Positions 8,389-50,946 of a stretch of DNA of 64,000 nucleotides are shown here, in pieces (position 1 is the stretch's first letter; every line of letters starts with the position of its first letter). Below the pieces are notes generated by a model that worked only from the letters and a program-made list of their open reading frames with translations, made no database searches and was not told where the DNA came from. The stretch covers positions 24,058,001-24,122,000 of the forward strand of contig NC_087251.1 of NCBI RefSeq assembly GCF_037042905.1, in the 5' to 3' direction. The translations under genes and the position numbers were made by a program. This DNA comes from Lytechinus pictus (lineage: Eukaryota).

Positions 8389-11184
8389 TATATAGATACA
8401 CCCAATATAACAGATGAAGTTAACTCCCAGAGGGTTTCCGCTAGATGAGAAAGTGAGTCCCTATTAAAGTTTAATGAAAAGCACGGATATATTCTCATGA
8501 GTTCTTGTTTTGGGAATAATTTTCTTGCCATTCATTCAGGCAGATGAGATCCATTAATCAATAAAACATTATTTTGTCAGGTTTGTGATATTTTTAGTTA
8601 ATCCTGAAATTAAGAAAAGAGACAGGGCTTTTTAGAAGTTAGGAAACGATGCAGTTCCTTTATATTATGAATGGAAGGTTTTAAAAAGGTTTGTTTTGGG
8701 TCAAATTTGAAAAAAAATTACCATTTGTTTTTTACTGCTTGAGAGAAGTGGGGGCTTGTATAACAGGTAAACATGTTATATTACAACAAATTTAGAGCGA
8801 TAATATGAATTTTGGTTAAGGTAAATTACTTGAAAGGAGTATTATAACCTGATCAAAATAGTTGCAAGTTGTCAATATACTTTTGGTAATTCAGCATAAT
8901 CATTTCAAATGCAGATTAACTATTAGTACGATACAGTAGGATGTTTATTCTAAAGTTATGGCTTTTTCTGTCTCTCTCGGGACAGGTCTTTATCACCCCT
9001 CAAATAGGCAACTTCCTTAATTGAATCTGTCCTGTGTAAATCAAAAGGCTTAATCCTATAACATTAAACAATGCAAACCTTACTCTCAATTCATAGCAAG
9101 TGTCACTGAAAAGGCAGGATATTAAACGAAACAGAATTAGTCATGTAGCCAATTAAAACAACTACACATTGCTATTGACTGTTTATTAGTTAACTCTAAT
9201 GAGTTTTGGGAGAGATAATGTTGAAAGGAGAGAGAGACAATCAGTGTGATTGAGTTATTGGTTTACACAAGTATCATCACATATTGTGAAAGACCTAGAG
9301 AGACATTATCTTGAACAATATTCATACATGAGACCAAAATTGATTTTTTTTTTTTTAATGTATTATTTTTTTTTTGTTGAATTTGTTATTTATTTATTTA
9401 TTTATTCATTTATTATTCAATTAATTAATTAAATATTTTATTCATTTATTTATTTATTCATTTATTTCTTTATTTCATGTTTATTTTCATTTATTTATTT
9501 CTATTTTTGTTGGGGGGTTAAGCTAACAACTATTAGTACTTCTATTCATATTGACAGTCATTCATTATCACCACTATCACATGTGACTTCAGAACTGGAC
9601 ACCGGTATGTTTAAAATATCCATACTTACACATAGCAAGCAGACAGTGCAACTGGGGGCTTCGTTTCTCCTGAAAAACAAATTCCATGCACAGATATAAC
9701 AGTAATTGTACAATCAAATGACAACTTTTTCACTATAACTCATGAAATAGTTGTTCTCATTTAGTAAAATCATTGAATATCTATGTTGATTCAACATCAA
9801 CAAGATATTTTAATGCAGGTCTATATCTGTAAAATACAATTTTTTTTAAAAACCCATTTTAACCCAGTACGATACAATTTGTTGCATGATATTCTTCGGC
9901 ATAGCACTTAATAAGTTAAATGTAGTGAAATGGTTGATAAACCAAACAGATTGATTTATAATCAGATCTAACTACCTTCCAATTTCTCTAATGTGATTCA
10001 AATCAAATACTATAATAAAAAGGTGAATGAATAGTTGACTTAATCCATACAGGGGCAGTCATTAGTGAATTACTGTTGCTTTTTCGAGACTATAACATCC
10101 CGTTAATAACATTGATGACGCTATAGCACAGTGTGTCATGGGCATTACGGTCTTCCACTTCATGGGCCGTTAAAATGTTCTATTTTAGGATATCTTTATC
10201 CTATTGTAAGCATGGTAAGCTAGCATCATGGAGGATATTTTGAAGACCCGTTATTACATTCTTACTTGCCTGAGTCCATAGGATAATGTAAGGCATTTAA
10301 TGGAATAGATGTCTATTACATTGGTATTTCATTGGGACTATGCAAGGCAAGTGTGTTATACAAGAAACACTGTTATGAATGGACTGGTTAGTTAGTTGAT
10401 AAAGAGGCATGATACATTTAAACATATATTTGAATCCTGCATGTGCTTTCACAAAGTGATAACTGTGTTTAAAGCTAATTTTTTTCTTCAAATATTCAAA
10501 ATTAGGAAACACATGAAAGCAGATTTTTGATCCAAGTTATAATGTAAAATTCTATTTCTTTTCTTGCAGTATTGCAATTGATATTGTATCTTATATTTTT
10601 GTTGGCATATAAAACTGACTCTCCATCACTTTTTTTAAAAACGGGGATGATGCAATGAGTTTAGTAGTAATAGTTCTTTTTTTTCTTTCTCTTTACTAAA
10701 CAAAGAGAGAATAAGTACTATCATTAAGCAGATGCCGCTACGATAAAGCAAAAAAAAAAAAATGTAACAGAAAAGTGTGTACTATAAAACCTGCATAATA
10801 CATGTAATGCAACTACTTCAAATCAATTAAATTAGTTGGATCATTTTACAGAATTACTGAATCATATCTGTCTAATGGTTCAAAGAGTTAAGGGAAATAT
10901 TAGAAGTAACTGTGAAGTTCGTAAGTCAGGGAGAAGTTAAAAAGAAGGAAGCAGTTTGTGTCATCAAAATTCCTGATAAACAAAGCATCTGCTTGGTCTG
11001 GAAAATGTCATTGCTTAGGGTCATATGGGTTTGGACGAGGTTCAACTTTTAAACAAATCGTATTTTTGGAATGTTTATGTTGAAATGCCCCATTAAATTG
11101 ACTGCCCAATTATCTTCTTTGATCTTCCTTGACAATCTCATGCAATGCATCTCTCACCAACCAACAAGTAAATTCTCTAACTCC

Positions 11185-11530: not shown

Positions 11531-14500
11531 TTGTTTCAACTCTTCATATTTGTTACTGAATGGAATTCTGATGACTGTCTCTGTCTCTATGTCATCTCTG
11601 ATATCTCCTGAAGTGCTCAAAAGCCTTCTAATGTTTATCGCTCCAAGTAGCATCAAAAATAGATTGAGCTGTTTGCTATTCTACCCTTACTGAGCAAAGA
11701 TAGGCTAAAACACAGATTCAGGTTATAGGTTCAAGAGCATTCCATCTGAAGTTCATGATTTCTGAACTGCATGTGCTAAGTGGAAAATAGTTTTTAATGT
11801 TTATTGGTTTAATATTCTTTAATATGCTTAGATATTCTTTAAGTATTCTTGAAGAATATGACATACTTATTTCATATCTTCACTGACTACTCATCGGTAC
11901 TGGTGTCTACAACATGAAAAAAGCACATCTAACTCTCTGTACTTTCATCAAACATTTCCACGTTGAAATCAATCTAGTGATATTGCAAAACAAGGTGTGT
12001 TTTTCATGTGACACCTGGATACCTTCATAACGCATTGAATTCCATACCCCTGACCAGTATTTACTTTTTCTTGATGCTTTGGTCTGTCCAGGATATTGGG
12101 AGAAAACGAAGAAAAGATCTCGAGACGTGATTTGAATGGCACGTCACGGAGGAGCATTTTCAAACAAGTCGGGCGTTTAAACACAGGTGCTGAAATTCTA
12201 GGCCGTAGACTCTCCCATTCCATGAGATTCATAGCCCAAAAAGTCAATATGGCATTTGCATTTTTTGTCTCCGATGCCAAAACTGATCCGAGTTCTCCAG
12301 AGCTATGTTGCAATTGGGTCCAGCCATGCTTCTTTTATCCACACGTGCCTTGGGGCAACGGTAAATAGAGAGAGAAAGCGAGATGACCAGGAATGGATTG
12401 TCCAGAGGAGGTTTTGAGATGAAGAAGTTATTTTCTGTTTATTTTCCAAATATTTGAAGTATGGGAATTCAAGTGCTTCCCTTCAAGGCACTTTCACTGC
12501 ATGCTCATACTTTTAACCTGTAGGTGGATTGGAGTAATTTCATGCTCATCTGTTTAGGATCATTTTTTAAAATACTTTATGTACAGTATATATAGAGTTT
12601 TTAAATTTCTTTAAGTGTTTAGGTTGCTAGATGTAATGTTAAACAAACATGGGAACGCTGCCTCATGTAAATTTCTTTGTAATTTGAAGACTTAACCGGC
12701 TTTATTCGACTAAATTACCTGCAAAAATTACCTTTAAATCCAATTTTATTTTGCCATGGAAAAAATATTGTTTAAAGGAATACTACTGATAGTATCCAAC
12801 AAGTTACATTTGAATGCAAAGTAAATCAAAATTGATACTGTATTACAATGTTTATACGAAAATAAGATCCTTTTATTTGACACCTGTAATTTCCTAAAGG
12901 ATATTAAAAGATGTCCTTAATGATAATACTTCCTATTTTATGGTTTTATGACAGTTCCTTTGAAACATCTTTGAAACTTACTATTACCTAATTTCTTTAC
13001 TCAATAGAAGGATAAAAATAAAGCATCTTAATCCTTTAGTGGTTTGTTGTTGTTTTTCCAAGTGGTGCACACTTAGATTTAGGTTTCTTTTGCTGTAACG
13101 ACATTGCGACTTTTATCTCACAGATCTCCCTCACTTGGTCAAAATAGAGACTGTATTTGATAGTGTGCTTTTATAGTTGGTAAACATGATCAGGTGGTAA
13201 ATAGCATCTATAGCTTCAGGATATATACATGTTTTCTTTCTTTCAAAGTCTCCAGATGCATTTCAAGCTCTGTTCCCACTGCCAGATTTATGTGTATTCC
13301 AAATTGCTTATGCAATTTTTATTGATTTTGAAGATTATATTTCTACCGATAGCTGGCAAATGCTGTGCTGTGCACAACATTGTAAGACGTGGGACTTGTA
13401 AATTAAGAAGGGTGAATAGATTTTGATCATTCCATACCTGGAAAAATCCACATGCACAAGGTGTAATATTGACAACATGTTTAATCTCATATTAGCTTTA
13501 TTCCAGTTTTTACTAACAATGTTATCGTATTTATAATCTATTAAATAAAAATAGAACATGAATACATCTCCAAAAATCATATCAGGATGGACTTACTAAT
13601 TTATGTTTCTTTGCTTTGTAGTGCTTGCACAATTATAACACAAAATATGGTTCTTTGGAAAACTAAAGATCTAATGGGAATGGGGTTAGCTCCGAGATAA
13701 TGTAAGGTCTCACTAGTGCCTATCCTCATTCATTTCATCATTATGTTAGAATTTGTATGTTTGATGATTTTAGAGGTTTGATCACAATGAATAATATTCC
13801 TCATGCATGTGGCCTTTAATGTGGATGTGGATTTCTAATGAAGAAGAAATCTGACCTCCACTATCTTCAGTAGATATCAAACTAGTTTCAAAATTGGCTC
13901 TGATAGAATAAGATACATGCTATTGAATTCTTGTTTAGTTAATAAGTTTTATATAAATCAGAGTCAGGGGCATGTTCACACCATTCACCGGCAGTATCAT
14001 GTGTCGCCAAGTTGTCTATAGGAGACTCGACGACACTTCTCGCCTGTAAAAACATTGTAGATAGTCCGGTGTCCCAAGCTCAGCCAGTAAGAAGCCAAAA
14101 CGGTTTATGCATAGCCGCAGCTATCACCAGAGGCATTCACCACGGAAATAATATTCACTCTAGAAGAAAAAAAGCAATTGAGCATTCGTAATCAATACTG
14201 CCACCTTTATTTTTCAGGGCGTATTTTAAGGAATGTGGGTGCACCTCGATGTCCAACTGTGGTAGGGGTACATGTTTTCATTAGAAATGGAATACGGGAG
14301 ATCAATAAAAGCGCGTTTCAGGGGGTTTTGAGACATGGGACGTGGGATGGATTACGTGTGCAATATTAGCTTGTTCTTGGAACTAAGCTTCTGCCATAGG
14401 CCCCCTAGCTGGAGTAACGTTGTACTTATGCCGACGACGCGAGAAGAGGATTTTGAAGGCTTTAGACTTCATTGATGATGGTTGGCTTGGTGATTGGGTC

Positions 14501-17028: not shown

Positions 17029-17205
17029 GTGGTTTACAACTGTGATGACTTTATGTTGGAGCTTCTTGACTTGGCTTTCAATGGTAATGACTTTATTCAG
17101 ATATTTGGTGATATCACCTTCACAACAGAAGATGTTGATGCCATTGACCCTATCACCTTCCTCACCGAGGAATCATTCCTTCTTCTTCCAAAGTGGATGG
17201 CAAAG
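17029..17205 (+). CDS. NRXN: alpha-neurexin exon (LNS2 end / LNS3 start)
   Basis: ttccag|GTG...AAG|gtaagg, 177 nt, phase 0-0; VVYNCDDFMLEL...DPITFLTEESFLLLPKWMAK (neurexin DPITFETPESFISLPKW motif). Confidence 0.95.
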
Positions 17206-17441
17206 GTAAGGCATAGTGAATGCTTTTATTCTGAGATATTTCTTTTCTCTGACCATACTCCTTAGAAGTGTTATGTAAACAATGCATGCATGTGACACAG
17301 CTTTGAATAATGAGCAAGAGTACATCAGCATGTGTTTGGCACGTCAGTGACAGAAAGTCATCATGGAATATAGTAACATTATGCCCTTATAACTCTCAAA
17401 TCTTATTTATAGCTGAGGTTTATCTTCAAAAGTAACGGAAG

Positions 17442-17472
17442 GTGTGTGTGTGTGTGTGTGTGTGTTTGTGTG
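17442..17472. repeat. (TG)n microsatellite
   Basis: Directly visible. Confidence 0.9.
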
Positions 17473-19119
17473 ACTCAATGTGCATTTTTCATTACTTCCT
17501 GTCAATCTAAGAAAAAGCACGTTTGAATGTACAAGTAAAAAGTTGTTAAATAGGTAACTATAATGTTTTTTTGTCTTTTTAATGTCATTGATATTCATTG
17601 AATTTGAGAAGTAATACTTTCCTAATCATTAGTTTAGAGGTCTGTGTGGTAACAGATAGAGCTCTAGGAATAAAGATAATAAAATTTAGCTTTATTTTTT
17701 GCACTTCAATGTTATTTTAAATTTCTAAGTTTGCTGCTTTTCATTTTTATCATATAGGGGGCAAAATTTCTTCAATCATGTTAGAATCATGAGAACTTTG
17801 ACCTTCTACTTGTTCCTCTTGTGGGTGAATTTCTATCCCTCTTTCTTGCCTCCAGGTTCATGCTATTGAACTTTAAACATGTGACTCCTATGTTAGTATT
17901 GGCAGGATTTTCTTGCATGTAATTTGGTTAACATGATCCGGCTATCTGTTATTGTTGCATCAAACAGTGTGCCAGCTTGTAGATGGGGGATTGTTAAACA
18001 GCCATCTGAAATTGCTTGCTCAGTCATAGAGATAAACACACACAGTCTGTAGGACATTGATTGAGTTTTAATTCCCCCCGAAAAAAACATTTTGGGTGGA
18101 ATTGTGAGTTTAATTTTAATTTATTGAATGGGATTCAATCTTAATTCTTTAATCTCAATCTTCAATTTTATGCAAAGAGCATACTTTCATGATACTTGTA
18201 CTTGTTTAATTGCCTCTTTTTGAAAATATTGGGGCTAAATGATTTTATTATTATGTGTAGTAATTTTTTAACACCAATGAGGCTAAACTTGGTTTATTAT
18301 GATTTGATGCTCTCATTCTCCTCCAATTTTTAAATCTAACATGTGTTCAATATTTTCTGTTCATTGATTACATTAAGATTTTGTGGTTTTCACCCAATTT
18401 TTTTTTTCAAGACCACATCCAACACAGAATAAGTAAATGGAAAGATTTATGAAATTATCAAATTAGAAAGCTTATTTTCAAACTTACTAACCTGGATGTT
18501 TATTTGTGGGACTGAATGAAGCCAGTGAGGATGAGATGAGTTATGCCTAGCATTTGGACTCTGGATGAAAGGACTATCTTGTTACCCAGTGTTTATGTGC
18601 AGGCAAGGACCGATCCATTACCATCCTACTGCAGTCATGATAAATCAGGCTTTCAGCAGATTTACAGGTGCTATGAATGGAATTGCCTTTGAAGATGGAA
18701 AGAGATCCAGGGGGTGGGGTGGAAAGGAAAAAACTGAAGAGAAGGGAGATTTAAATTTAAAATTTGAAAACTTGGGTATGAATCAAATTAAAACTGATGA
18801 TTATACAGTAATAAAGTTGATCATGATGCTACACTATGGGAATCAAGGGTAGATACTTGATCATTACATTAGAACATGAAGTAGGGATTCCTAAACATGC
18901 ATGGCAAAATCAGCTGAGCTATAAGTGAAATATAAGCAGCAATAGGAGTAATGTAGGAAAATGTCATGGGATAAGATTGTATGTATCATGGTAAAAGAGA
19001 ACCTCTCACAAAAACTCTTGATAACCAAAAGTCAAGGTCTTGAAGAAGAATAAGTGAGATAGTATCTATCATTCACCTGACTGATAGGCTTTATCAGGCT
19101 TTCAGTAAAGCCGACAGAC

Positions 19120-19305
19120 AGAAGCGTGTCGGGAGGGCATTTCAAGGAGTGCAAATTCGGCGGGTATTACGAGGTCCATTTGCTTGATTTCCGTCAATCG
19201 GCGGCACCATCTCTCGCCTGTGTTGCCATGGTGATGGCATGGACGAAAGGCCTCTAGTTAGGCTACTTTGCTTTATTTGGAGGGCGTGGGCTGCATGCGC
19301 AACAG
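19120..19305. promoter_or_regulatory. candidate intronic promoter/enhancer
   Basis: CpG-rich patch with X-box GTTGCCATGGTGAT (19222-19235), GGGCGTGG (19282-19289) and NRF1-like TGCATGCGCA (19292-19301). Confidence 0.35.
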
Positions 19306-19954
19306 GATGAGTCTCTAAAGAATAACATCTTTGTCGATGACTTATTCAAGAAGAAGCAGCTTGAGTGACAGTTACTTTGTGTTGGCTCATATTATGAGAT
19401 GTGTTTTTGTGTTTATTTTAGCAGTTTCCGTGCAAGATACGTGCTTGGGGAAAGCCAGAAAGAATGGGATGTGCAAAAGTGAAAGTAGACAAACCAATGA
19501 ATGATGTTGATAATATCAGTCAAGTTTCATTAGTGGTTTTATTTATGTATCGCCATCTGTTTTACACTAATGTTAGATAATTTGTAGTCATATATCCTTC
19601 CATTTTTATGATTTAAAAAATTACTTGTTTAATTAGATTAGAATTTTTAAAACCATATTTAAAACTATTAATCTGGTTAGTTAGCTTATGAATACTTTGA
19701 TTTAAGTACAACACATATTGTGCTTTAGCAATTATGTGGAAGCTATGAAAAGGGTAAAAAAATTTCGAGTAAACAAAATGTGGAAAGTAGGAATTCATTT
19801 GGTATTAGTAAATGATGATCTCATTGTTAATGTTTTATCTGTCTCTTTTTTTCTGTTCAATCTATATCTTTCTATCAATCTTTGTTGAACATGTTTGTTT
19901 GCATGACTTGCATGCTTTTCTAAAAAACGTTTTATATTAGACAATCATAGTGAT

Positions 19955-20152
19955 TATGGCCGTACGCAGACATTTTTTGCTGGCGGGCAGGACGCATAAA
20001 CTTTTTAGAAAAAAACTTGAAAGCGAGGGAGCAAAGCGACCGAGCTTGTCATTGTGGCACATTTTGTTAAGTGAAATTGTAAAAAAAAAATTCAGTAAAA
20101 AAAAATGGTAAGTCTTCAAAACTGCTCCCCCCCCCCCCTGCGTACAGCCATG
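19955..20152. mobile_element. hAT-like MITE
   Basis: TIRs TATGGCCGTACGCAG / CTGCGTACAGCCATG; 8-bp TSD ATAGTGAT. Confidence 0.85.
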
Positions 20153-20742
20153 ATAGTGATTTATGAGATTTTCACTCGTATCTGCTTTAAGAGGAGTTTT
20201 CTCATATTTTTAATTCAAAGTATTCATAACAACTTATTAATGTTGGTTTGTTTTTTACTGGGAAGAGCCTATTGGATCATTTGAAAGGTGATTGATTTCT
20301 GGAAAAATGAAAATGTGGTTTATTTCATGCCTGGAACTTGTTTATGATGTGGTGATGTTCAGTCATTTTAACTCATCAACAATGATAGAATTTGAATGTA
20401 AATAAAGAAAATGAAACATAGCATGCTTATAGATGAATTTAATATGGTGGGCCTATATACTGATGATTAATTCAGTCAACTTGAGAAATGGTAGTATTGT
20501 TATACAGAATTGATGAATGTGCAGTTGTGCATTCAATCAACATTACAATACAATATATGATGTATAGCTCTCCCCGTGTTGTAATGGGTAATTCTAGTCC
20601 ATCGCTCATTTTCAGAAGGCTTTTTCATTAAATAATTTGTATGGTAAAAGCTTTATGAGATACCCTCTTTATGATAAGGGACCACAAGTGTCATGTCATC
20701 CATAAATAACAAGATGGCTGTACTTGTTTGATTGTGTTACAG

Positions 20743-20778
20743 TTTAGAAAACGCAGAAAGTGTAGAAAATGCAGAAGG
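20743..20778 (+). CDS. NRXN: candidate 36-nt cassette exon (FRKRRKCRKCRR) near start of LNS3
   Basis: gttacag|TTTAGAAAACGCAGAAAGTGTAGAAAATGCAGAAGG|gtaagt; phase 0-0, in frame. Confidence 0.5.
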
Positions 20779-22192
20779 GTAAGTTTTTAAGCATGAAAAA
20801 TATTCAGGATCCTTTACAAGAATTATTGCACCAATTGATGCAATGCTTCTTCCTTGTGAAGAAGGCATGCACTTTCTTCCTTAAAACTTTTCACTTTCTG
20901 CTTGAAAAATAGTGTCCTTCGGAATAAAGAGGTGGGCCGTTTCTTTTCTGACTATAGTAGAAATATTTCCATCAAGAATACAGGAAGTCGTAATATTAAA
21001 TAAGTTATTTATTACAAAGCATTGTCAGGATCACATAAAACTTTAGAGCACTTAATTTTTTTTCCAGAAAAACAACAATCGCCATTGACACTAGAATCCA
21101 CACACAAATCTATATAGAATTGGCTAGTGAATTAGTCATGCTTATATTTTAATGAAATTCTCAGAATCGTGTTTCAGTTCTTCTTTAATATTACCAATCA
21201 CTTAGAAGTTTTCTTTTTTATAGTGGTAGTATAATGATATTTTTGAATGCCTTCCCTGGATAACACTCTTTAATCTTGAGCTAATGATTGGATGGTCTTC
21301 TTCGCACCTCGTCTGCTCCCAGCAGAAATTTGCCCATCCATCTTTCATCGAATTGTAATTGCAAACACCAACTGCCACTCTTTTCTCTTGGCATCAAGAT
21401 CACAAAATATATAGTTTGTCTGCTAGTAATGTCAGTAGGTTTACCAAAGTATAGACGAAATGTTGTTATGTCTCTGCTTTTATTGATTATAATAGAACAA
21501 TATGCTTAAATTTTATATTCATTAAAGAAGTTATAATGCTAATGATATGAGATTTTCCCCATCGGCAACACTTTTTTTTCTTTGGACTGAGGTTGAAAAT
21601 TTTTCATTTCATGAGGAATAAAGGTATGACTAGCAACTACAAAGGGGAGGGGGTAGGCATGAAGTGCCTCATTCTGATAATCATTTGCAGAATTCACAGT
21701 TACAACATTCAACTTTTCTATGAAATAAGTTCAGAACTTTTATTCAGTGATATTAAAATAATGGATATGAAGTCTAAAGAATGAAAAGAATACTTGAGAT
21801 ATTCCATATTGGTTTAATGTGAAAGTGTACCAAACACTGCAAATGATAATATGTATCTGCTAAATATTATACATTTAACACCAAAGAACATCATCTGTAC
21901 TTGTATAAATGTCAATTATTTAGAACATAAAGGAAATAAGATGTATTATGGTTTTCATCTGGAATTGAACTCTGTGTTGGTTCTGTTTGAGCCCTAATAA
22001 ATTGTATATAATACAATCATACATCATATACAAAAATGTTGACTTTCAAATATTATTATATCTTGCATCAATTCTATAATGCTTAAACATTTATTTTTAT
22101 ATCATTTATCTTGTGTTATCATTTTGAGTATTTTGTTTCCAACTTGATTGAAAGTAAAAAAACACTTGTGGTTTTGATTTTTATTTTATCAG

Positions 22193-22231
22193 CTGAATAG
22201 TGCAAGTGATATCGCCCCCGGTCAGGGACAG
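22193..22231 (+). CDS. NRXN: candidate 39-nt cassette exon (LNSASDIAPGQGQ) near start of LNS3
   Basis: ttttatcag|CTG...CAG|gtaaac; phase 0-0, in frame, GC-rich island. Confidence 0.5.
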
Positions 22232-23106
22232 GTAAACCAAGATGAATTGATCATTTTTGTTATTTTGCCTGGATTTTTAACAATTAACTCATTAAATCAT
22301 GGAAAAAAACATTGGATTCTACATAACCCATCGAAAGAATGAATCATTTACTAAGTGACCATAGGGTGCTGAAAATATAACTTTTGTTCAATTAATATTG
22401 ATATATAATTAACACATTGATGATGTTAATGATTAAATCTCACTCTCAAAAGCATGCAGCAACTGAAATTGTCTTTTCCTTGAATTTCTCACATTTTGAA
22501 TATTTTAAAAAAAATCTCATGTAGAGATTCTTGATTTGTGTTAAGATTATGCACCATTTTTTCTGCATGGAGGAAAATTTCCTTTTTTATTTTTTCACCA
22601 TTCACTGAGATTCCTATGATGTCCTTATAGATGATAAGTTTAATAAGGATATTTGCTGTTTTAGGTGTAGATATTGATTAATTACTTTTTAATTATTCAT
22701 AAGCATGTATAATTGATATTTTCAGATAGCATGTCAAGAAGGTATTCTTTTATGATAGTGTTTTTGTGATGATTTCTTCAGATTTCTTTTGTATATAAAT
22801 TTACCTAATTATTGATTTTTTTATCATTATGATTCAAATTTCTCTTTTATCTTCAAGAATATTAATTTAACTTTTGTTGTGTGTTGACATCTTTTTCAAT
22901 CACTGAATGAATCATTGATAGACATTTTTGTCTCAAATCATTTTATCTTATTTACTTCTTGTTTATTTCTAATATTGCCAGTACTCTTGAGTTAAGTTTG
23001 ATTTGCATGAAGCAAACCTCCAAATATGTGAAGGCAAATCGAGTACAGCCCATTTACACAGTTGCAAGGCAACTTTCAGAGAATGGCAGGTTCTGATATC
23101 ATGTTA

Positions 23107-23387
23107 AGGCTTGGTCCCACTGCACTTACGGATGCAGAGAGGATGTAAAACGGAAAAGAATCTTGCCATCCATTGGAATACGTTACGTATCTGTTGTGTA
23201 CTCTTTACAAATGTGTTTCATACGCTCTATATCCATCAAGCATCCGTCCACTGTTATTTCATTGAACACCCATTTTTGTCCATTGTCTGGAGCGGATGAA
23301 AAAGGATGGAGCCACGCCAAAATTTCGCTTGTCCGCTGTATCCGTTATGAATACGTTTTGTGTCCGTCGGCCAGTGAGACCAGGCAT
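23107..23387. mobile_element. Harbinger-like MITE
   Basis: TIRs AGGCTTGGTCCCACTG / CAGTGAGACCAGGCAT; TTA flanks. Confidence 0.7.
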
Positions 23388-26380
23388 TTATGTTCTTGGA
23401 AACAGGTTCATATTACCTAATCTTGACAACAGTCAGGATCCCTGCCCCCATAAAAATCTAACAATATAAACCATGTGGATTTCTGATTTAAAAAATCATA
23501 CCGAGATTACATATTACAGAATTTAAGGATTTGGTTCCAGCTGCTCTGTCTTACCTGAGAAGAAATTTTGCAAGGTGAATTTTGTATAGTCTGTGCAATT
23601 GGGGTATAGATTTGGGTTGAGGTATTTGCATTTATTGATTGTAATCTCTTGACTCTGCATCCCAGATTGAAATAACTAAGTTACACATTGGTTGTGTATA
23701 TAGAGGATGTTCAAAAGGAAAAAGATAGAGTCAAAGTGATTACATTCCATTTTTGTGCATTTTTTTACTTTTTATATCTTATCTTGGAGTAGCATAATGA
23801 AAAACATTCACAGCCCAAATTTGGTAGTCAGTGGGGCCTGAGATATGATCATACAAATACCTTATTAGCCCCATTGAAAGTCAATGTATTATTGACCTGG
23901 TTCTAGACAATGTCTCCTCCAAAATAGGAAATGAAAAAAAAACAATGGAATGTGGAAAATCATGATGTCATATTTCAGTACTCAATTCTATCTGGTTGCA
24001 ACTGCTCCATTACCCCCACCCCCTAATCCGTTATTCATCATGATACCATATCAGATGTTTAACCCATGTTGGTGTGAACAATCATGAATGCTATATCCTT
24101 CAACTCCTCTACATTCAGAGCTACCAACCCTCTAAATAACTCAACAAACCAAATCCATGCAAAACAGTAATAGCAGTTCACTGCACTATCGCAATCAGCG
24201 GCCAGATCCGTCTACATGCCAACAATTGGAGGCATATCGCATGTCCCGAACAAATGCCTTGATTGATGAAATATGACTTGAAACATGACTTCTGGTCAAA
24301 GATTTCTATGTCTATTTCAGGACCACGACACTTTGATCATTGTGAATGTCGTGCCATCTCAAATCCGCAAGGAGTAAGAAAATATCAAGGAGTATATTTC
24401 CCTCTTTGGCTAGTATGATCAGTATAACAGTTGTGTAATCATAATAATACCATTCTGACGTCATGTTTACAGCATTGTAGAGATCTTTAACAGCTATGTC
24501 TTGATGACAATTCGACATGTAGATGATAATGTGACTTTTGTCTACTCTTGTGTTATATTTCACTTGTGATATGGTATTTTTCTATTGTAGTGCCACATCT
24601 CAGATGTGAATATGATATTTTCACCAAAAATGCAATGGACTTGACAGTCATTTTAATATTTTTTCCCCAGTCACCAGGTCATTTAGATGATGTGTGTGTT
24701 CTATCCCACCGCTGCCACCAAATGTTTCATCACCATGTCCTCAAACCATCACTAGAGGTTTTTAGCAGATCAAGGAAAATTTTGAAATAATCACATTTAA
24801 ATGCTATTTTAGAAGGTTGAAAGTGTAGTTGAATTTAACTTTTGATAGTGTGTTTGTAGTGCATTATCTCAGAAATTGAGACAGACTGCCAGTTCAAAAT
24901 TACTTGACCATGTTTTTCATGTGTGTTTCATTAATGTTGACTTTGGACACATCGTTAAAATGGTGACAATGAAACAACAACAACAACAACAAAACCCCTC
25001 TCTGATTTGTCCTCTTCTTTCAATCAGCATATCAAACCCAATCTGTCTGAACTACAGTGTCATCACTTAGAAATCCCAGTACTAAAAAACACCCCATTAG
25101 CAATTCGGAGCACGATGAGCAAGAGAAAACGAGGAGCGGATCTTCGGCCTCTTAAACTAATTTTTGAATAATTGATGCGGCTGATGCATAATTTACAGGT
25201 CACACATGCTTTTGCAGTTCTCCAATATCAGTGAATAATTGAGAGTCTCTGTGTGTTGATATTGTCTGATGTATGGATGAATGCCTTAAATCTAGACTTC
25301 TGATATCCATCTCCCAGCTGAAATGACTGAAATTTATTTACAGTTGAAGAGATATGTATTAAATGACAGAGGTCAGACATTTGTTTGATTAAAATAAATT
25401 AATGAGAATCAACATGCGATAAAGCCTTGCAATATCTCCATTTTGGTTTTGACCTTAGAAAACAGATTTGTAAACGAAGGCACACGAATACCATTGAGTT
25501 TTTCTTAATTGTATTCAAGTGATATAGAAAATTATCTATAAAATCTTATCCAAAACTGCTTCAACTCTTGGGCAGGAATTACTGAGAAGTTCAGCCTTCA
25601 ATTTTGTTTTCTGTATATTCATTTATTTTAGTTTTTGATTATTTGTAATATTTGATATTTCCAGCATTTTGTCATATTAAAATGCAATACTGCTTGTTAC
25701 TGTTTTAGATGGTCTCTTATATCCATTGTGAAATTGAAGTTTTCTAGACAGTAAAAAATTGATGTAATGTAAATTTATATTTTTCCACTTTTTACAATAA
25801 ATTTTGAAAGTTTCACAATTATAAGTCGACACAATGATTTCTTTGTAGGGGATACTGTAATTGCAAATAGATTTTAAAGCAGATTATGCCAACTGAATGA
25901 TGTTTTAGAGATTTGCACTTGAGCTCCCTACATTAGATATGCTCTATGCACTGTAGATTCACTGTGACGATCATTAATCATACAACCATGATCCTATTTA
26001 GCATTCAACTCTGCTCTGATTTATTATTTTTCTTGGTGCTCTCTAGAATCTTGAACACATTAAAGTAGGTTGGACACTGACCCCAGCAACTGTGAACTAT
26101 TTCAGTTGCAATATACTCTGCCTCTGAACTTGATTTTTGCCTTTGTGGACATATGGTATATTGAAAATGTGTATATCAAAGCTTCTCTATAAAATTACAG
26201 CTTAAGATATTTTGGGAAAACAGTTTCTTCTCAGTAATAGTATCTATATATTGCAGACACAATTATTCAGTACATTAATATTGTTTTTTTTTAACCAATT
26301 TACATACAGTGATATCATGAAAAAAAATTATTACCAACACTTCTTCATTCACAGAACAGATATACAGATATATAGAAGTA

Positions 26381-26590
26381 CCAGTGTGTTGGCTCAGTTG
26401 GTAGAGCGTCCGTCTCACAACCGGGAGGTCGGGGGTTCAAACCCCGGCCACATCAGACCAAAAGACGTTAAAAGATTGGAGTTGCTGCTACTCTGTTTGG
26501 CGTTCAACGTTCAATAATCTATTGGGCAAAGCAAATTTTCGGAGTATTTCATTTCATGTCTATTTCGAACAATAAAATATGGATTTTCAT
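26381..26590 (+). mobile_element. tRNA-derived SINE (Meta-domain-like core)
   Basis: A box TGGCTCAGTTGG and B box GGTTCAAACCC, tRNA-like head with CAC anticodon loop, then CCAAAAGACGTTAAAA...GCTGCTACTCTGTTTGGCGTTCAAC; no poly-T terminator after the head. Confidence 0.75.
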
Positions 26591-29543
26591 GGTCATTTTT
26601 TTTTTCATATATCTATAATTTGGGGTCCATTATAAATCATTAATGTGATTAAAAATGCTGATCAAGTAATAGTTTGGAATGGACATTAAAAATAGAAGAA
26701 ATTCACTGGATTTATGAAATATTCCTTTAATATTTGGAATAATAATATAATATTTGAAACTACTGTTTAGTCTGTTATTTTGATCTATGCCAGTTTTCTA
26801 TGTTTTGTATTCCCACTATGATTCACAATCTGGTATTAACCAGTGATGCATAAAAAGCCTGGTGTATATTTGATGAAGGGCTGACCATAAAAATTGCCCA
26901 TGTCATTAAACATTCAGCGGATTTATCCCAACATTGATCCCTGTGGGACCCCGCTCGGTTAGCTGAGCTGAGATGACTGGAAATTGGAACACAAAATGGT
27001 GGTCAGAATTTCAAACCATTTGGGATTAAGGGAGAAAGAGGAGATGAAGGGTAGAATAAAATGAAGTATGGTCGTGACAAGAATAGTATATAACTACCTT
27101 TGAAAGATGAATAGAAATTCAAAGCTTAATGGTCAATGAGGCTATGGGCAAATTGAATCTACAAATTGATATGAATAAATAAAGAACCGATTGTGAATAT
27201 TTTAATATCTAATATAGACAATTCAGAGATATAATAGACAGTATTGAGGGCTTTGAACATGAATTGTGGAATGTGGAATGCATTCTGTCATTGCAAACAG
27301 GGACCAAATTCTTTCAGTCAAGAACTTAAATATACTTATCTGTGATTTGAATGTACCATATACTATGATGTGGATGCATCAAGAATTTTATTATTTTAGT
27401 TAAATCTTGATACCATTCCCACTGATATTCTTGAATTCAAATTAACTTTTGCTAATTGCAAATATTTGACTTCCTTTTTAGAATGATCATCCATTCAAGA
27501 AATGCTAACCAATTTAGTTTGAAATAAATCACCTTACATGGGTTTATTATTCACTGTTCCTTAAAGGGCTTGACTATCAAACATCAATTTCTTTCAACTC
27601 ACTCTATTCCTGAAACATGGCCTCTTTTTAAAAAATTCAGCAGTGTATGGAACATGACAGCATTGTCACGCGGCAGCTATCACTGTCCTTATAGTGGGTC
27701 TTTGTAAGAAAGGTCGCTGTAACTTACGTTAATTGTGCCAGGGTGTTGGCAAAGCCTGCCCTCTTTGTACCGAGTATGAAGATGTGTTTAAGAAGTAATG
27801 GAAGGTGAAGGCCAGAACCTCCTCTGCAATTGATCTATGAATGAGAGGTCACAATCACAGCGAATATTTTAGGGGCTATAAGGGAAAGGTATAGGATGGA
27901 AATAACCCTGTCTGAATATGCCACTGATGCAGTTTGATTGTGTAAAGGTAGTCAGTCATGTGTGGACTATTCATTTATTATAAATTGACAAGACTGTAGT
28001 TCTCTGCCATCTCAGATAAACTATGCAAGTTCAGGCTTTGCTGGCTAATTACAGCCCCACCTTAAAACATTGCATGTCATATTGCATAGAGTTTGTTCAG
28101 TCTGATCTGGTAAGCAGTTTGTGAAAGACTACATATGATCAAGGAGTGGTCCTATCAGAAACGTGTCACACTGTCCACACCAAGTAATAGCTTCTGAGGT
28201 TTATCTCTGGGTAGTGTCTTTCTGATTCCTGTAGCCAGTGATATATTACTTGAACATCACCCACGCCTTGAGATATACAGGGTGCCTCAGCAAAAAGTTT
28301 TACCTCTCAGATCATGTTACCAGTATGTAGAGACTTTCATCAAGCAGTGGCCCTTTCCAGGATTAGACTCGCATTACAATCTTGATCTTGGACCATAAAG
28401 CCAAAGTCTGCAGATAGACAGAATGCCTCACAGATTGCAATAGCTTTTAATAAATGTTCTTGATACATCTTTATTGTACAAGGTGCTCTCTGTAAAGGTT
28501 CTGATGTTTTTTTTCCACTTTTGCATATTATACGTCTTTAGATATGTCATCCATGAAGAAGTAGTGTATTCTTAAGATAAATATTCTAGATCAAGTGATA
28601 TTTCTTTCCTATCTTTTAGTGATGTAAAAATGAAAAATCATAGCCCTTGGTTAAACAGGATATCTTGGCAAAATATAATGCCATTCATAATCCATATGAA
28701 AATCATGATATATGAAATGAGGCAGTAACCAGTAAGTTGAATCATTCTGTGTCTAATTCAAATCTTTAAAGAATAATGGGCAGAATTCATTCATTTAATT
28801 ATGAAATGTAAAGTTTGTTTTACAATGTACTTCTCAGGAATTGAGAATTTTCATATCATATAGTACTTTACAGTGATGTTCTATCCCCAGAAAAGTGATT
28901 TCTATGGATGTTATTTCCATTCATTGCATGATTACACTTAATTGATTATGCCATGTTATTTCAGTAATGTATAAATATTCAAATTTTCTGTAATTTCTCC
29001 CACATTTCATAGGATTTTACTTTACAGTGACTTTTGTACTTCACATGTCTGCATAGTTCTGTATGAATATGTACACTTTCAATTTCAATGACTTAACTCT
29101 CAGTTAATATCTCACTTTAACTTTATGAATATTTCTTCATAATTGGCATGATTAATTGCATGTAACCAACTTCAAAATTTTTATAGTATAGAATTTTTCT
29201 TAGGTTCTTTCCTTCATTCTGGGGTTTGCAATATTGTAAAATCATGTTGCATTCCTTGTCTATTGTTTAGCTAACAGAAGAAGAGAACTGCATACTGTAA
29301 GTTAGAATGTGATGACTGGATCTAAAACATTCTTCGGTTCAGTCGGTTAATTCTTTAATTTCACAGTATACATAATTGAAATCATGAACTCTTTCCACAC
29401 TGCCTTACAAGACAAGCTGTCGTAGAGGCACCTTAAAAATGTTGATGCCATTTTTAGCCGTGGCTTTTTGCTAGAACCCCACTTTTCATTTTCTCCTTCA
29501 ATCCTCTGATTCCTGCAGAGACGAAACAATGCTGGATCATATA

Positions 29544-30085
29544 CCGGGGGGGGGGGCACTCAACCAAAAAAGTAGTAGGTATGTACCGCGGATGAGACAA
29601 AAAACGGGGGCCTTGGAGCGGGCTTATTGTAAAAAGGAGGGTCCTCGGAACGGGGTTCGGAACTACAATGTTTGTGAAAACGGGGGTCCTTGGAACGGGT
29701 TGTCTGCGTGTGAGTGCGTATGCATCCCTATGGAACGTGCATGCAGCTAGCCCGGCGGCACGGGCGCCGGGTGCGCTAGCGCAGAGGCGATGGTCGGACA
29801 GCGCTCTACAGCCGCTTTTCACAAAAATTGCGGTTCATTGTAGCAGATCAATGTGGACGGAACGGCGTAACAGAAAATATGTGAAGCTTTGGAGCGGATT
29901 TCTTTCTTCTTTTTTCTTGATAAGAAGAAAATGCTATGCTTTGGAGAGGCTTTCTTTGTTCTTTTTCTCAATAAGACAAAAATGCTATGCCTTGGAACGG
30001 AAATTTGAGTGTAAAAATGGGGGTCCCCTCCACGGCACATACCCACTATGCATTATATACTGAGTGCCCCCCCCCCCCCCCCCCG
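29544..30085. mobile_element. MITE with poly-G/poly-C TIRs
   Basis: CCG(G)nCACTCA ... TGAGTG(C)nG termini; 8-bp TSD ATCATATA. Confidence 0.85.
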
Positions 30086-30403
30086 ATCATATATCTGCTC
30101 TGAAAGCTTTAAAATCCATTTTGAGTTCAAGCTGCACATGTAATTTTTGTCAGAAATTTTCTGATGACATCAAAGATACTTTTCCGATGTTGTTTTTAGG
30201 TTTTAATATTTTAGGATAATCAGTTGTAGACACAATGCTATCTTATGCTTGGGATGTATCCCTCTTGTTCATGCATATTAACTTTCTCTTTATTTTATGT
30301 TTGAAATATGTTGTTTTTCTACTCCCTCAACATTATGGATTAGTGAGAGGGGTACTCCTCCTAGTTGTTATGTAACCCCATTCCTATGTAATTCACCCCA
30401 CAG

Positions 30404-30643
30404 ACTGAAGGCACTCTCTCGCTTAGCTTCCGTACCAACGAGCCATCAGGGGTGATCATGTACAACCGAGGTGCCGATCACATCACAGACTTCTTTGCTC
30501 TGGAGTTGTTGGATGGCCACTTGTACCTGGTTCTAGATCTAGGATCCGGAGCTATCCGCTATAGGGCCGATTCCCTTCCTCTCAACGATGGTCTCTGGCA
30601 TTCTGTTGTGCTCTACAGACATCATAACAGAGGAACATTACAG
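30404..30643 (+). CDS. NRXN: alpha-neurexin exon (LNS3)
   Basis: cacag|ACT...CAG|gtaaac, 240 nt, phase 0-0; GTLSLSFRTNEPSGVIMY...DFFALELLDGHLYLVLDLGSG...LNDGLWHSV laminin-G motifs. Confidence 0.95.
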
Positions 30644-42443: not shown

Positions 42444-42464
42444 CATTTAACATAACGTACGGAG
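42444..42464 (+). CDS. NRXN: candidate 21-nt microexon (AFNITYG) in LNS4
   Basis: ttctcttctcccag|CATTTAACATAACGTACGGAG|gtgagt; phase 1-1, in frame. Confidence 0.68.
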
Positions 42465-48610: not shown

Positions 48611-48981
48611 GCAAGCAGTCTACATTCTTTGATGACCAGGCAATGATCAACCTCGGTGGACGTGGTGATATCAGTGAAAGCAAACGAAAGAGGAGAAGAA
48701 GAGCGCCTTCCTCATCTCAGTTTGAAGGCATGATGTCTGGTCTCTCATACAATGACATGAGAGTACTAGATATAGCAGCGTCAGATGACCCACGCATCGT
48801 ACTCAGCGGGAATGTAGGTGAACTCCAGAATCCAGAGAATTACATCTATGGCTCACCGATACCAACAACGTCAGATGAGAGCACTATCTACCGCATCACC
48901 ACCACCAGGAAGACACCGGTATTACCACCAATACTCAATATATCAAGTACAGCAAATTCAGATCTCACATCTCCAACAAAG
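48611..48981 (+). CDS. NRXN: alpha-neurexin exon (LNS6 end + S/T-rich stalk)
   Basis: gacag|GC...AAG|gtaatc, 371 nt, phase 1-0; GKQSTFFDDQAMINLGG...FEGMMSGLSYNDMRVLD then Thr/Ser/Pro-rich. Confidence 0.9.
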
Positions 48982-50934: not shown

Positions 50935-50946
50935 TTACTCCCAGAG
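50935..50946 (+). CDS. NRXN: candidate 12-nt microexon (VTPR) in stalk after Cys-loop 1
   Basis: ttgcatcatctatttctttacag|TTACTCCCAGAG|gtaaac; phase 1-1, in frame. Confidence 0.5.

What the first reader, a model, noticed from the sequence alone, without database searches (positions are those of the whole stretch)
20743..20778. Cassette encoding FRKRRKCRKCRR: splice-switchable furin or heparan-binding motif
Seen: a 36-nt purine-rich exon candidate with a GG|GTAAGT donor, built from two imperfect 18-nt repeats; 9 of 12 residues are basic and two are Cys. Known: R-X-K/R-R (RKRR) is the furin consensus, and basic clusters bind heparan sulfate. Inference: inclusion could allow clipping of the N-terminal LNS1-LNS2 part, giving a shorter membrane form without a second promoter, or could add HS binding.
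Basis: partly seen in the sequence, partly recalled or inferred. Interest (0 to 1): 0.7.

Follow-up and report, generated by a model that had tools for sequence, protein, structure and literature searches.

The report
Unproven basic microexon in urchin neurexin
A sea urchin's neurexin (nerve-cell adhesion) gene holds a 36-base stretch with working-looking splice signals that would add a strongly positively charged loop to the protein and would then likely help it grip acidic sugars, but no RNA read or annotated protein seen here uses it yet.

Summary
The window is a Lytechinus sea urchin alpha-neurexin gene. The 36-nt stretch is as described: CAG|...|GTAAGT, frame-preserving, FRKRRKCRKCRR. Its use is unproven. 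None of 189 fetched proteins carries it, and none of 15 junction reads at this intron includes it. The cassette that Lytechinus gene models do carry here is a different exon, 22193-22231 (LNSASDIAPGQGQ), which the finding does not mention; no listed read junction used that one either, so the RNA test is weak. Splice signals this good arise by chance about 0.05-0.3 times per intron of this size, but 0 of 894 chance pseudo-exons were two-thirds basic. I put real use at about 60%. The insert would sit in the loop between strands 2 and 3 of LNS3, likely the B-C loop where basic patches of laminin and Slit bind acidic glycans, so glycan binding is likelier than shedding. The furin context is poor (P1' Lys), the cut would fall inside the domain, and all 40 long echinoderm neurexins checked already carry a constitutive R-X-K/R-R loop in LNS6. 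No earlier scan note covers this exon; one covers the gene's SS1 microexons.

The parts
17029..17205 (+). Constitutive exon: end of LNS2 and first two strands of LNS3, ends KWMAK, phase-0 donor
   Evidence: tblastn to urchin neurexin; RNA reads and contigs
20682..20742 (+). Acceptor region of the candidate: 4 YCAY, branch-point-like TAAC about 34 nt upstream, 27-nt AG-free T/G-rich tract, CAG
   Evidence: the regulatory meaning of the motifs is recalled, not tested
20743..20778 (+). Candidate 36-nt microexon, FRKRRKCRKCRR; two 18-nt units; single copy in the genome; inclusion not shown
   Evidence: not in reads or proteins
20779..20869 (+). Donor GTAAGT (AGG before it; 8 of 9 consensus positions) and two downstream GCATG at 20791 and 20865
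22193..22231 (+). Annotated 39-nt alternative cassette, LNSASDIAPGQGQ, inserted at the same KWMAK/TEG junction
   Evidence: identical peptide in 4 of 5 L. variegatus and 2 of 2 L. pictus models; mapped with CAG|...|GTAAAC
30404..30643 (+). Constitutive exon, LNS3 from strand 3 on, phase-0 acceptor
   Evidence: Pfam Laminin_G; best PDB match neurexin-1-alpha LNS3; junction reads
48682..48702 (+). Constitutive KRKRRRR loop in LNS6 (exon 48611-48981), an R-X-K/R-R motif shared by echinoderm neurexins

Best explanation
This is likely a real but rarely or tissue-specifically used microexon of a sea urchin alpha-neurexin that would add a 12-residue basic loop to the third LNS domain and so would likely raise binding to acidic glycans such as heparan sulfate or dystroglycan's matriglycan. 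Shown: the gene, the phase-0 intron, the splice signals, the peptide, and a second cassette (22193-22231) annotated at the same junction. Predicted: the junction lies in a flexible surface loop between LNS3 strands 2 and 3. Inferred: inclusion in some cells (probably neurons), identity of that loop with the B-C loop, glycan binding, and a possible Cys-X-X-Cys disulfide. Furin nicking is a possible side effect, not the main function.
For: Frame-preserving; donor scores above 7 of 19 and acceptor above 8 of 19 true sites of this gene (leave-one-out). Third-best candidate in its intron. 0 of 894 relaxed pseudo-exons were >=66% basic, and 0 of 17 equally strong pseudo-exons were >=50% basic, held a furin motif or had a downstream GCATG. 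Branch-point-like motif and 27-nt AG-free zone (5 of 17 pseudo-exons have both). Two GCATG downstream (2.7% of 150-nt intron windows of this gene). The gene has five other exons of 39 nt or less that appear in relatives' isoforms. The 13-aa insert at this junction is modelled as a low-confidence loop between strands 207-210 and 231-239, so the site can take an insert. Precedent: B-C loop basic patches (laminin alpha1 LG4 RKR, Slit2 KVR) are needed for dystroglycan binding, and agrin's spliced KSRK creates a heparin site (PMC6450144 passages).
Against: 0 of 189 fetched proteins hold the peptide, among them 15 long urchin models (4 of 19 members of the urchin cluster were not listed). In four raw RNA runs (about 6%, 6%, 6% and 25% read) 15 reads skip the whole intron and depth is 0 in the bin that holds 29 of the 36 bases; by arithmetic that caps inclusion near 18% there, 35% for the 7 reads of organism A. 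No listed joint uses the annotated 39-nt exon either, and the joint table was cut (41 rows hidden). G at donor -2 occurs in 0 of 19 true donors of this gene. No TGC within 30 nt upstream. The basic composition can come from one 9/18-nt tandem duplication, and both differences between the 18-nt units change the residue. The GCATG and YCAY features were chosen after seeing the sequence. Conservation in a second species could not be tested. PMC6450144 finds no universal binding motif, and agrin's KSRK lowers dystroglycan binding.
Confidence: 0.42

Rival explanations
1. Pseudo-exon: a short purine-rich tandem duplication happens to lie between a YAG and a GTAAGT in a 13-kb intron; it is never, or only by noise, spliced in and has no function.
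For: Equally good splice form is expected 0.05-0.26 times per such intron and about once per gene. TRF lists 18 rows of short arrays in 14.6 kb. Absent from all fetched proteins and from 15 junction reads. Unusual -2 G.
Against: The array fills the AG-GT interval almost exactly and is in frame; 0 of 894 null candidates are as basic; branch-point-like and GCATG motifs are present; the positive-control exon had no listed joint in the same reads.
Confidence: 0.38
2. Real cassette whose main job is to add a furin site, so that LNS1-EGF1-LNS2 is shed and a shorter membrane form is left.
For: K-F-R-K-R-R gives basic P6, P4, P2 and P1 in a predicted flexible loop. Precedent: ApoER2 exon 6B adds a furin site that is cut and sensitive to inhibitor (PMC11293713 passages).
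Against: P1' Lys and P2' Cys, where Ser and Val/Ala are most frequent in good substrates and the motif alone is insufficient (PMC3545927 section 7; PMC3281273 passages). The cut leaves two LNS3 strands on the N-terminal piece, so the halves would likely stay attached, as cleaved SEA domains do (PMC6954182 passage), or LNS3 would unfold. A constitutive motif already exists in LNS6.
Confidence: 0.13
3. A young proto-exon, spliced in at low level in this lineage only, not yet under selection; perhaps grown from an 18-nt unit by duplication.
For: The 39-nt neighbour appears only in Lytechinus models (6 of 162 long proteins), so the intron may gain exons. The first repeat unit starts at the acceptor AG.
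Against: A neutral origin does not predict so extreme a composition; there is no read support at any level.
Confidence: 0.07

Closest known systems
Agrin splice site A/y (KSRK) in LG2
   Same: A spliced basic insert in a loop of an LG/LNS domain that creates a heparin site (PMC6450144 passages).
   Different: Agrin's insert is 4 residues in the J-K loop and is proven; this one is 12 residues with two Cys, in the loop between strands 2 and 3, and unproven.
B-C loop basic patches of laminin alpha1 LG4 (RKR), laminin alpha5 LG4 (RHR) and Slit2 (KVR)
   Same: Likely the same loop of the LG fold; basic residues there support binding to acidic dystroglycan glycan.
   Different: Those patches are constitutive. 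The loop equivalence here is inferred from strand order in the model and recalled strand names, not from a residue-level alignment. [quoted passage not shown]
ApoER2 (LRP8) exon 6B furin cassette
   Same: An optional small exon that adds a furin site to a neuronal receptor ectodomain (PMC11293713 passages).
   Different: Cleavage is shown for ApoER2; here the site would be inside a folded domain with an unfavourable P1' residue.
Vertebrate alpha-neurexin splice sites SS1-SS6
   Same: Same gene family and the same strategy of small inserts; six sites (PMC9812575 passage). This gene has SS1-like microexons.
   Different: No vertebrate, insect, mollusc, annelid, sea star or sea cucumber sequence parsed here has a multi-residue insert at this LNS3 junction. 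That none of SS1-SS6 lies in LNS3 is recalled.

Membership tests
Alpha-neurexin (host gene) | Six LNS and three EGF domains, one transmembrane segment, PDZ-type C-terminus | tested here: met
   20 exons give an open 1579-aa frame, 99.1% identical to L. variegatus neurexin X1 and ending KEWYV; Pfam and PDB matches
Cassette microexon | Canonical AG/GT sites of normal strength, frame-preserving, no stop | tested here: met
Cassette microexon | Inclusion seen in transcripts | tested here: inconclusive
   0 of 15 junction reads, but no listed joint for the 39-nt control exon either; 0 of 189 proteins
Cassette microexon | Exon and flanks conserved in a related species | not testable with these tools
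   No second urchin genome is held; metagenome scans found nothing
Vertebrate neurexin splice sites SS1-SS6 | Insert at a position homologous to one of the six sites | tested here: not met
   No parsed vertebrate isoform has an insert at this junction; positions of the six sites recalled
Furin substrate | R-X-K/R-R at P4-P1 | tested here: met
   RKRR
Furin substrate | Favourable P1'/P2' (small hydrophilic, then Val/Ala) | tested here: not met
   Lys, Cys versus the preferences; a preference, not an absolute rule
Furin substrate | Site in an exposed flexible loop | tested here: inconclusive
   Modelled with the 13-aa insert only (pLDDT <50 at 215-226); the candidate isoform was not folded
Furin substrate | Cleavage shown | not testable with these tools
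   needs expression
Heparin-binding splice insert (agrin A/y type) | Basic cluster in an LG-domain surface loop | tested here: met
   9 of 12 basic; junction lies in an inter-strand loop of the model
Heparin-binding splice insert (agrin A/y type) | Insert-dependent heparin binding | not testable with these tools
   needs binding assay

The most novel reading that the evidence does not exclude
Lytechinus has built a neurexin splice site of its own in the LNS3 glycan-binding loop, with two independent cassettes (a neutral 13-aa spacer and a polybasic 12-aa switch) that set glycan binding and convertase cutting; with the echinoderm-wide R-X-K/R-R loop in LNS6, echinoderms would make short neurexin forms by proteolysis where vertebrates use extra promoters.
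Probability: 0.12. Interest if true: 0.65.

Novelty: new member of a known kind. Interest (0 to 1): 0.36.

Why it matters
If used, it would give an invertebrate deuterostome neurexin a splice-controlled glycan-binding patch at a site where no vertebrate isoform fetched here varies: an agrin-like switch evolved again in another synaptic LG protein, testable in an urchin that now has transgenesis and knock-in tools (titles in search listing). If not used, it is an ordinary pseudo-exon. Either way two firmer points remain: a Lytechinus LNS3 cassette (22193-22231) and a conserved convertase-like loop in echinoderm LNS6.

Tried and rejected
No indexed holder was on record as RNA. Contigs of four runs gave no cover on either cassette; one (X17) runs from 17205 straight into the start of exon 30404, and two others (X1, X8) pass 17205 without touching the cassettes; contigs drop rare forms, so this shows the skipped form only (94 pieces and 80 loose ends not shown). 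Metagenome scans for related loci and for an exact exon stretch found nothing. A search for short protein fragments spanning the junction gave one bird protein without insert. The broad representative-protein search did not run, so the survey of distant animals is limited to 189 proteins. Transposon origin: rejected, single copy in the genome, though DNA search skips common words. Reading in frame +1 (LENAESVENAEG) as a shifted copy of the 39-nt exon: rejected; score 17 is expected 1.2 times per intron and the phase does not fit. Shared upstream motif between the two cassettes: rejected, 17% of random YAG sites match as well. Second acceptor at 20748: weak (score -0.68 with the first matrix) and frame-shifting. 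One search used one wrong donor (2518); one search corrected it to 2514 and its numbers are the ones used. Paper searches for urchin neurexin splicing, urchin microexons, neurexin-furin and LNS3 splicing (listings only, 20 of 51 and 20 of 839 shown) listed no paper on this exon; one search returned 0 papers. No supplements were opened; microexon tables of comparative splicing papers could bear on this.

Full report
Host gene. The exons of the window encode Laminin G and EGF domains whose best solved relative is neurexin-1-alpha. Homologue searches give sea urchin neurexins first. With 200 kb of upstream genome, 20 exons form one open frame of 1579 residues, 99.1% identical to L. variegatus isoform X1; the L. 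pictus models P0013 and P0018 match window sequence, so the species is a Lytechinus, most likely L. pictus. The intron 17206-30403 is phase 0 and lies between KWMAK and TEGTLSLSF, near the start of LNS3.

Observation. The candidate is as described: CAG, 36 nt, GTAAGT; FRKRRKCRKCRR; two 18-nt units. It is single copy in the genome.

A second cassette in the same intron. Gene models of Lytechinus do have an insert at this junction, but another one: LNSASDIAPGQGQ, in 4 of 5 L. variegatus and 2 of 2 L. pictus models and in none of 5 S. purpuratus or 3 Diadema models. It maps to 22193-22231 with canonical sites. Of 162 fetched proteins over 1100 aa, 149 have no insert, 6 have this one, 3 have one extra residue and 4 were not parsed. 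None of all 189 proteins holds the candidate's motifs; 4 of 19 members of the urchin cluster were not listed.

RNA. Four raw RNA runs, of which about 6%, 6%, 6% and 25% were read, gave 15 reads that join 17205 to 30404 (0, 1, 6 and 8) and zero depth in the bin holding 29 of the candidate's 36 bases. No listed joint used the 39-nt exon either, its bins held only trace depth (0.11 at most), and the tables were cut (41 joints, 32 inserts, 988 loose ends hidden). So these samples express the skipped form; they cap inclusion near 18% (arithmetic, 0 of 15) and say little about rare cell types. Contigs of four other runs showed the skipped form only.

Chance. With matrices trained on this gene's 19 donors and 19 acceptors, the candidate's donor beats 7 of 19 and its acceptor 8 of 19 true sites; its -2 G is found in none of them. 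In 854,001 null bases (other strand and flanks) 17 in-frame stop-free pseudo-exons scored as well, 0.26 per intron of this size, or 3 with an 8-of-9 consensus donor; a looser summed score gave 0.8-1.3. Splice form alone is therefore ordinary. The peptide is not: 0 of 894 relaxed pseudo-exons were 66% basic, 11 were 50% basic, 6 held R-X-K/R-R, and 6 had any residue class at 66%. The candidate also has a branch-point-like TAAC, a 27-nt AG-free zone, 4 YCAY upstream (94 of 894 null candidates have as many) and two GCATG downstream (2.7% background), but no upstream TGC. The link of these motifs to Nova, Rbfox and Srrm4 is recalled, and I picked them after seeing the sequence. The matrices are small and the null may include real exons. 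The gene has five other exons of 39 nt or less, which raises the prior. My estimate of real use is about 0.6; this is judgement, not a computed value.

Mechanism if included. An AlphaFold model of L. variegatus LNS2-LNS3-EGF2 with the 13-aa insert (mean pLDDT 84.6, 34 sequences) matches neurexin structures and puts the insert in a low-confidence loop between strand 2 (FLLL) and strand 3 (EGTLSLSFR) of LNS3. By recalled LG strand names this is the B-C loop. PMC6450144 (passages) reports that basic residues in that loop of laminin alpha1 LG4 and Slit2 are needed for dystroglycan binding and that agrin's spliced KSRK makes a heparin site while lowering dystroglycan binding; it finds no universal motif. 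[quoted passage not shown] Glycan binding is thus the likeliest effect (inferred). The candidate isoform itself was not folded.

Furin. RKRR fits the consensus and ApoER2 exon 6B is a true precedent (PMC11293713 passages). Against: P1' prefers small hydrophilic residues (PMC3281273 passages); Ser at P1' and Val/Ala at P2' are most frequent and the motif alone is insufficient (PMC3545927 passages and section 7); here they are Lys and Cys. The cut would leave two LNS3 strands on the N-terminal piece, so release is doubtful; cleaved SEA domains stay together until pulled (PMC6954182 passages). And 40 of 40 long echinoderm neurexins already have R-X-K/R-R in a loop of LNS6, against 1 of 118 parsed others (122 examined). 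In sea stars, sea cucumbers, a brittle star and Diadema it is followed by A/V/S/N then V/I, close to the preferred context; in Lytechinus and Strongylocentrotus by Ala-Pro. That loop is the better convertase candidate, though also untested.

Known context. Vertebrate alpha-neurexins have six splice sites and make short forms from separate promoters (PMC9812575 passages; SS1 position in PMC3084293 passages). The honeybee gene uses 12 splice sites and makes beta-like forms by splicing (PMC2570956 passages), so extra invertebrate sites are not new in kind. Searches (listings only) showed no paper on this exon. The scan's own index holds one nearby note, on this gene's SS1 microexons, and none for my search words.

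Verdict. Sequence observation confirmed; exon use unproven; glycan-binding insert 0.42, pseudo-exon 0.38, furin-shedding switch 0.13, neutral proto-exon 0.07. At best a new member of a known kind. Interest 0.36.

Noticed in passing
window 48682-48702 (exon 48611-48981): Constitutive KRKRRRR loop in LNS6; R-X-K/R-R is present in this loop in 40 of 40 long echinoderm neurexins and in 1 of 118 parsed others (an annelid). Possible conserved convertase site that would leave a short membrane stub; no paper on it appeared in the listing.
   Followed up: partly
window 22193-22231: 39-nt cassette LNSASDIAPGQGQ at the same LNS3 junction, identical in two Lytechinus species' models and absent from the other echinoderm models fetched.
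   Followed up: yes
window 17206-20110: In run X15, contigs cover most of the intron from 17184 to 20068 at about the depth of the upstream exon and stop near two A-runs (20081-20105) within a repeat, with no AATAAA/ATTAAA in 19900-20200. Read-through would end the protein 19 residues into the intron (a secreted LNS1-LNS2 form); internal oligo-dT priming or a break at the repeat is as likely. One run only.
   Followed up: partly
window 42444-42464 and 50935-50946: Further microexons of 21 nt (LNS4, AFNITYG) and 12 nt (stalk, VTPR), alternative in urchin models, with similar inserts in sea star models.
   Followed up: partly
window 10875-10937, 12383-12409, 13961-14089: The L. pictus models P0013 and P0018 start with extra 5' exons here, with no obvious signal peptide, and a separate short model covers LNS1-EGF1, although the genome holds one intact frame; probably an annotation split, an internal promoter not excluded.
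   Followed up: partly
window 23560-23574: Another in-frame 15-nt AG..GT candidate (KKFCK) scores above the finding's exon; it lies in a bin where repeat-like reads pile up.
   Followed up: no
window 22708-23675, 26096-26600, 29484-30100: Intronic stretches with deep, divergent, partly fitting RNA reads in all four runs: dispersed repeats.
   Followed up: no
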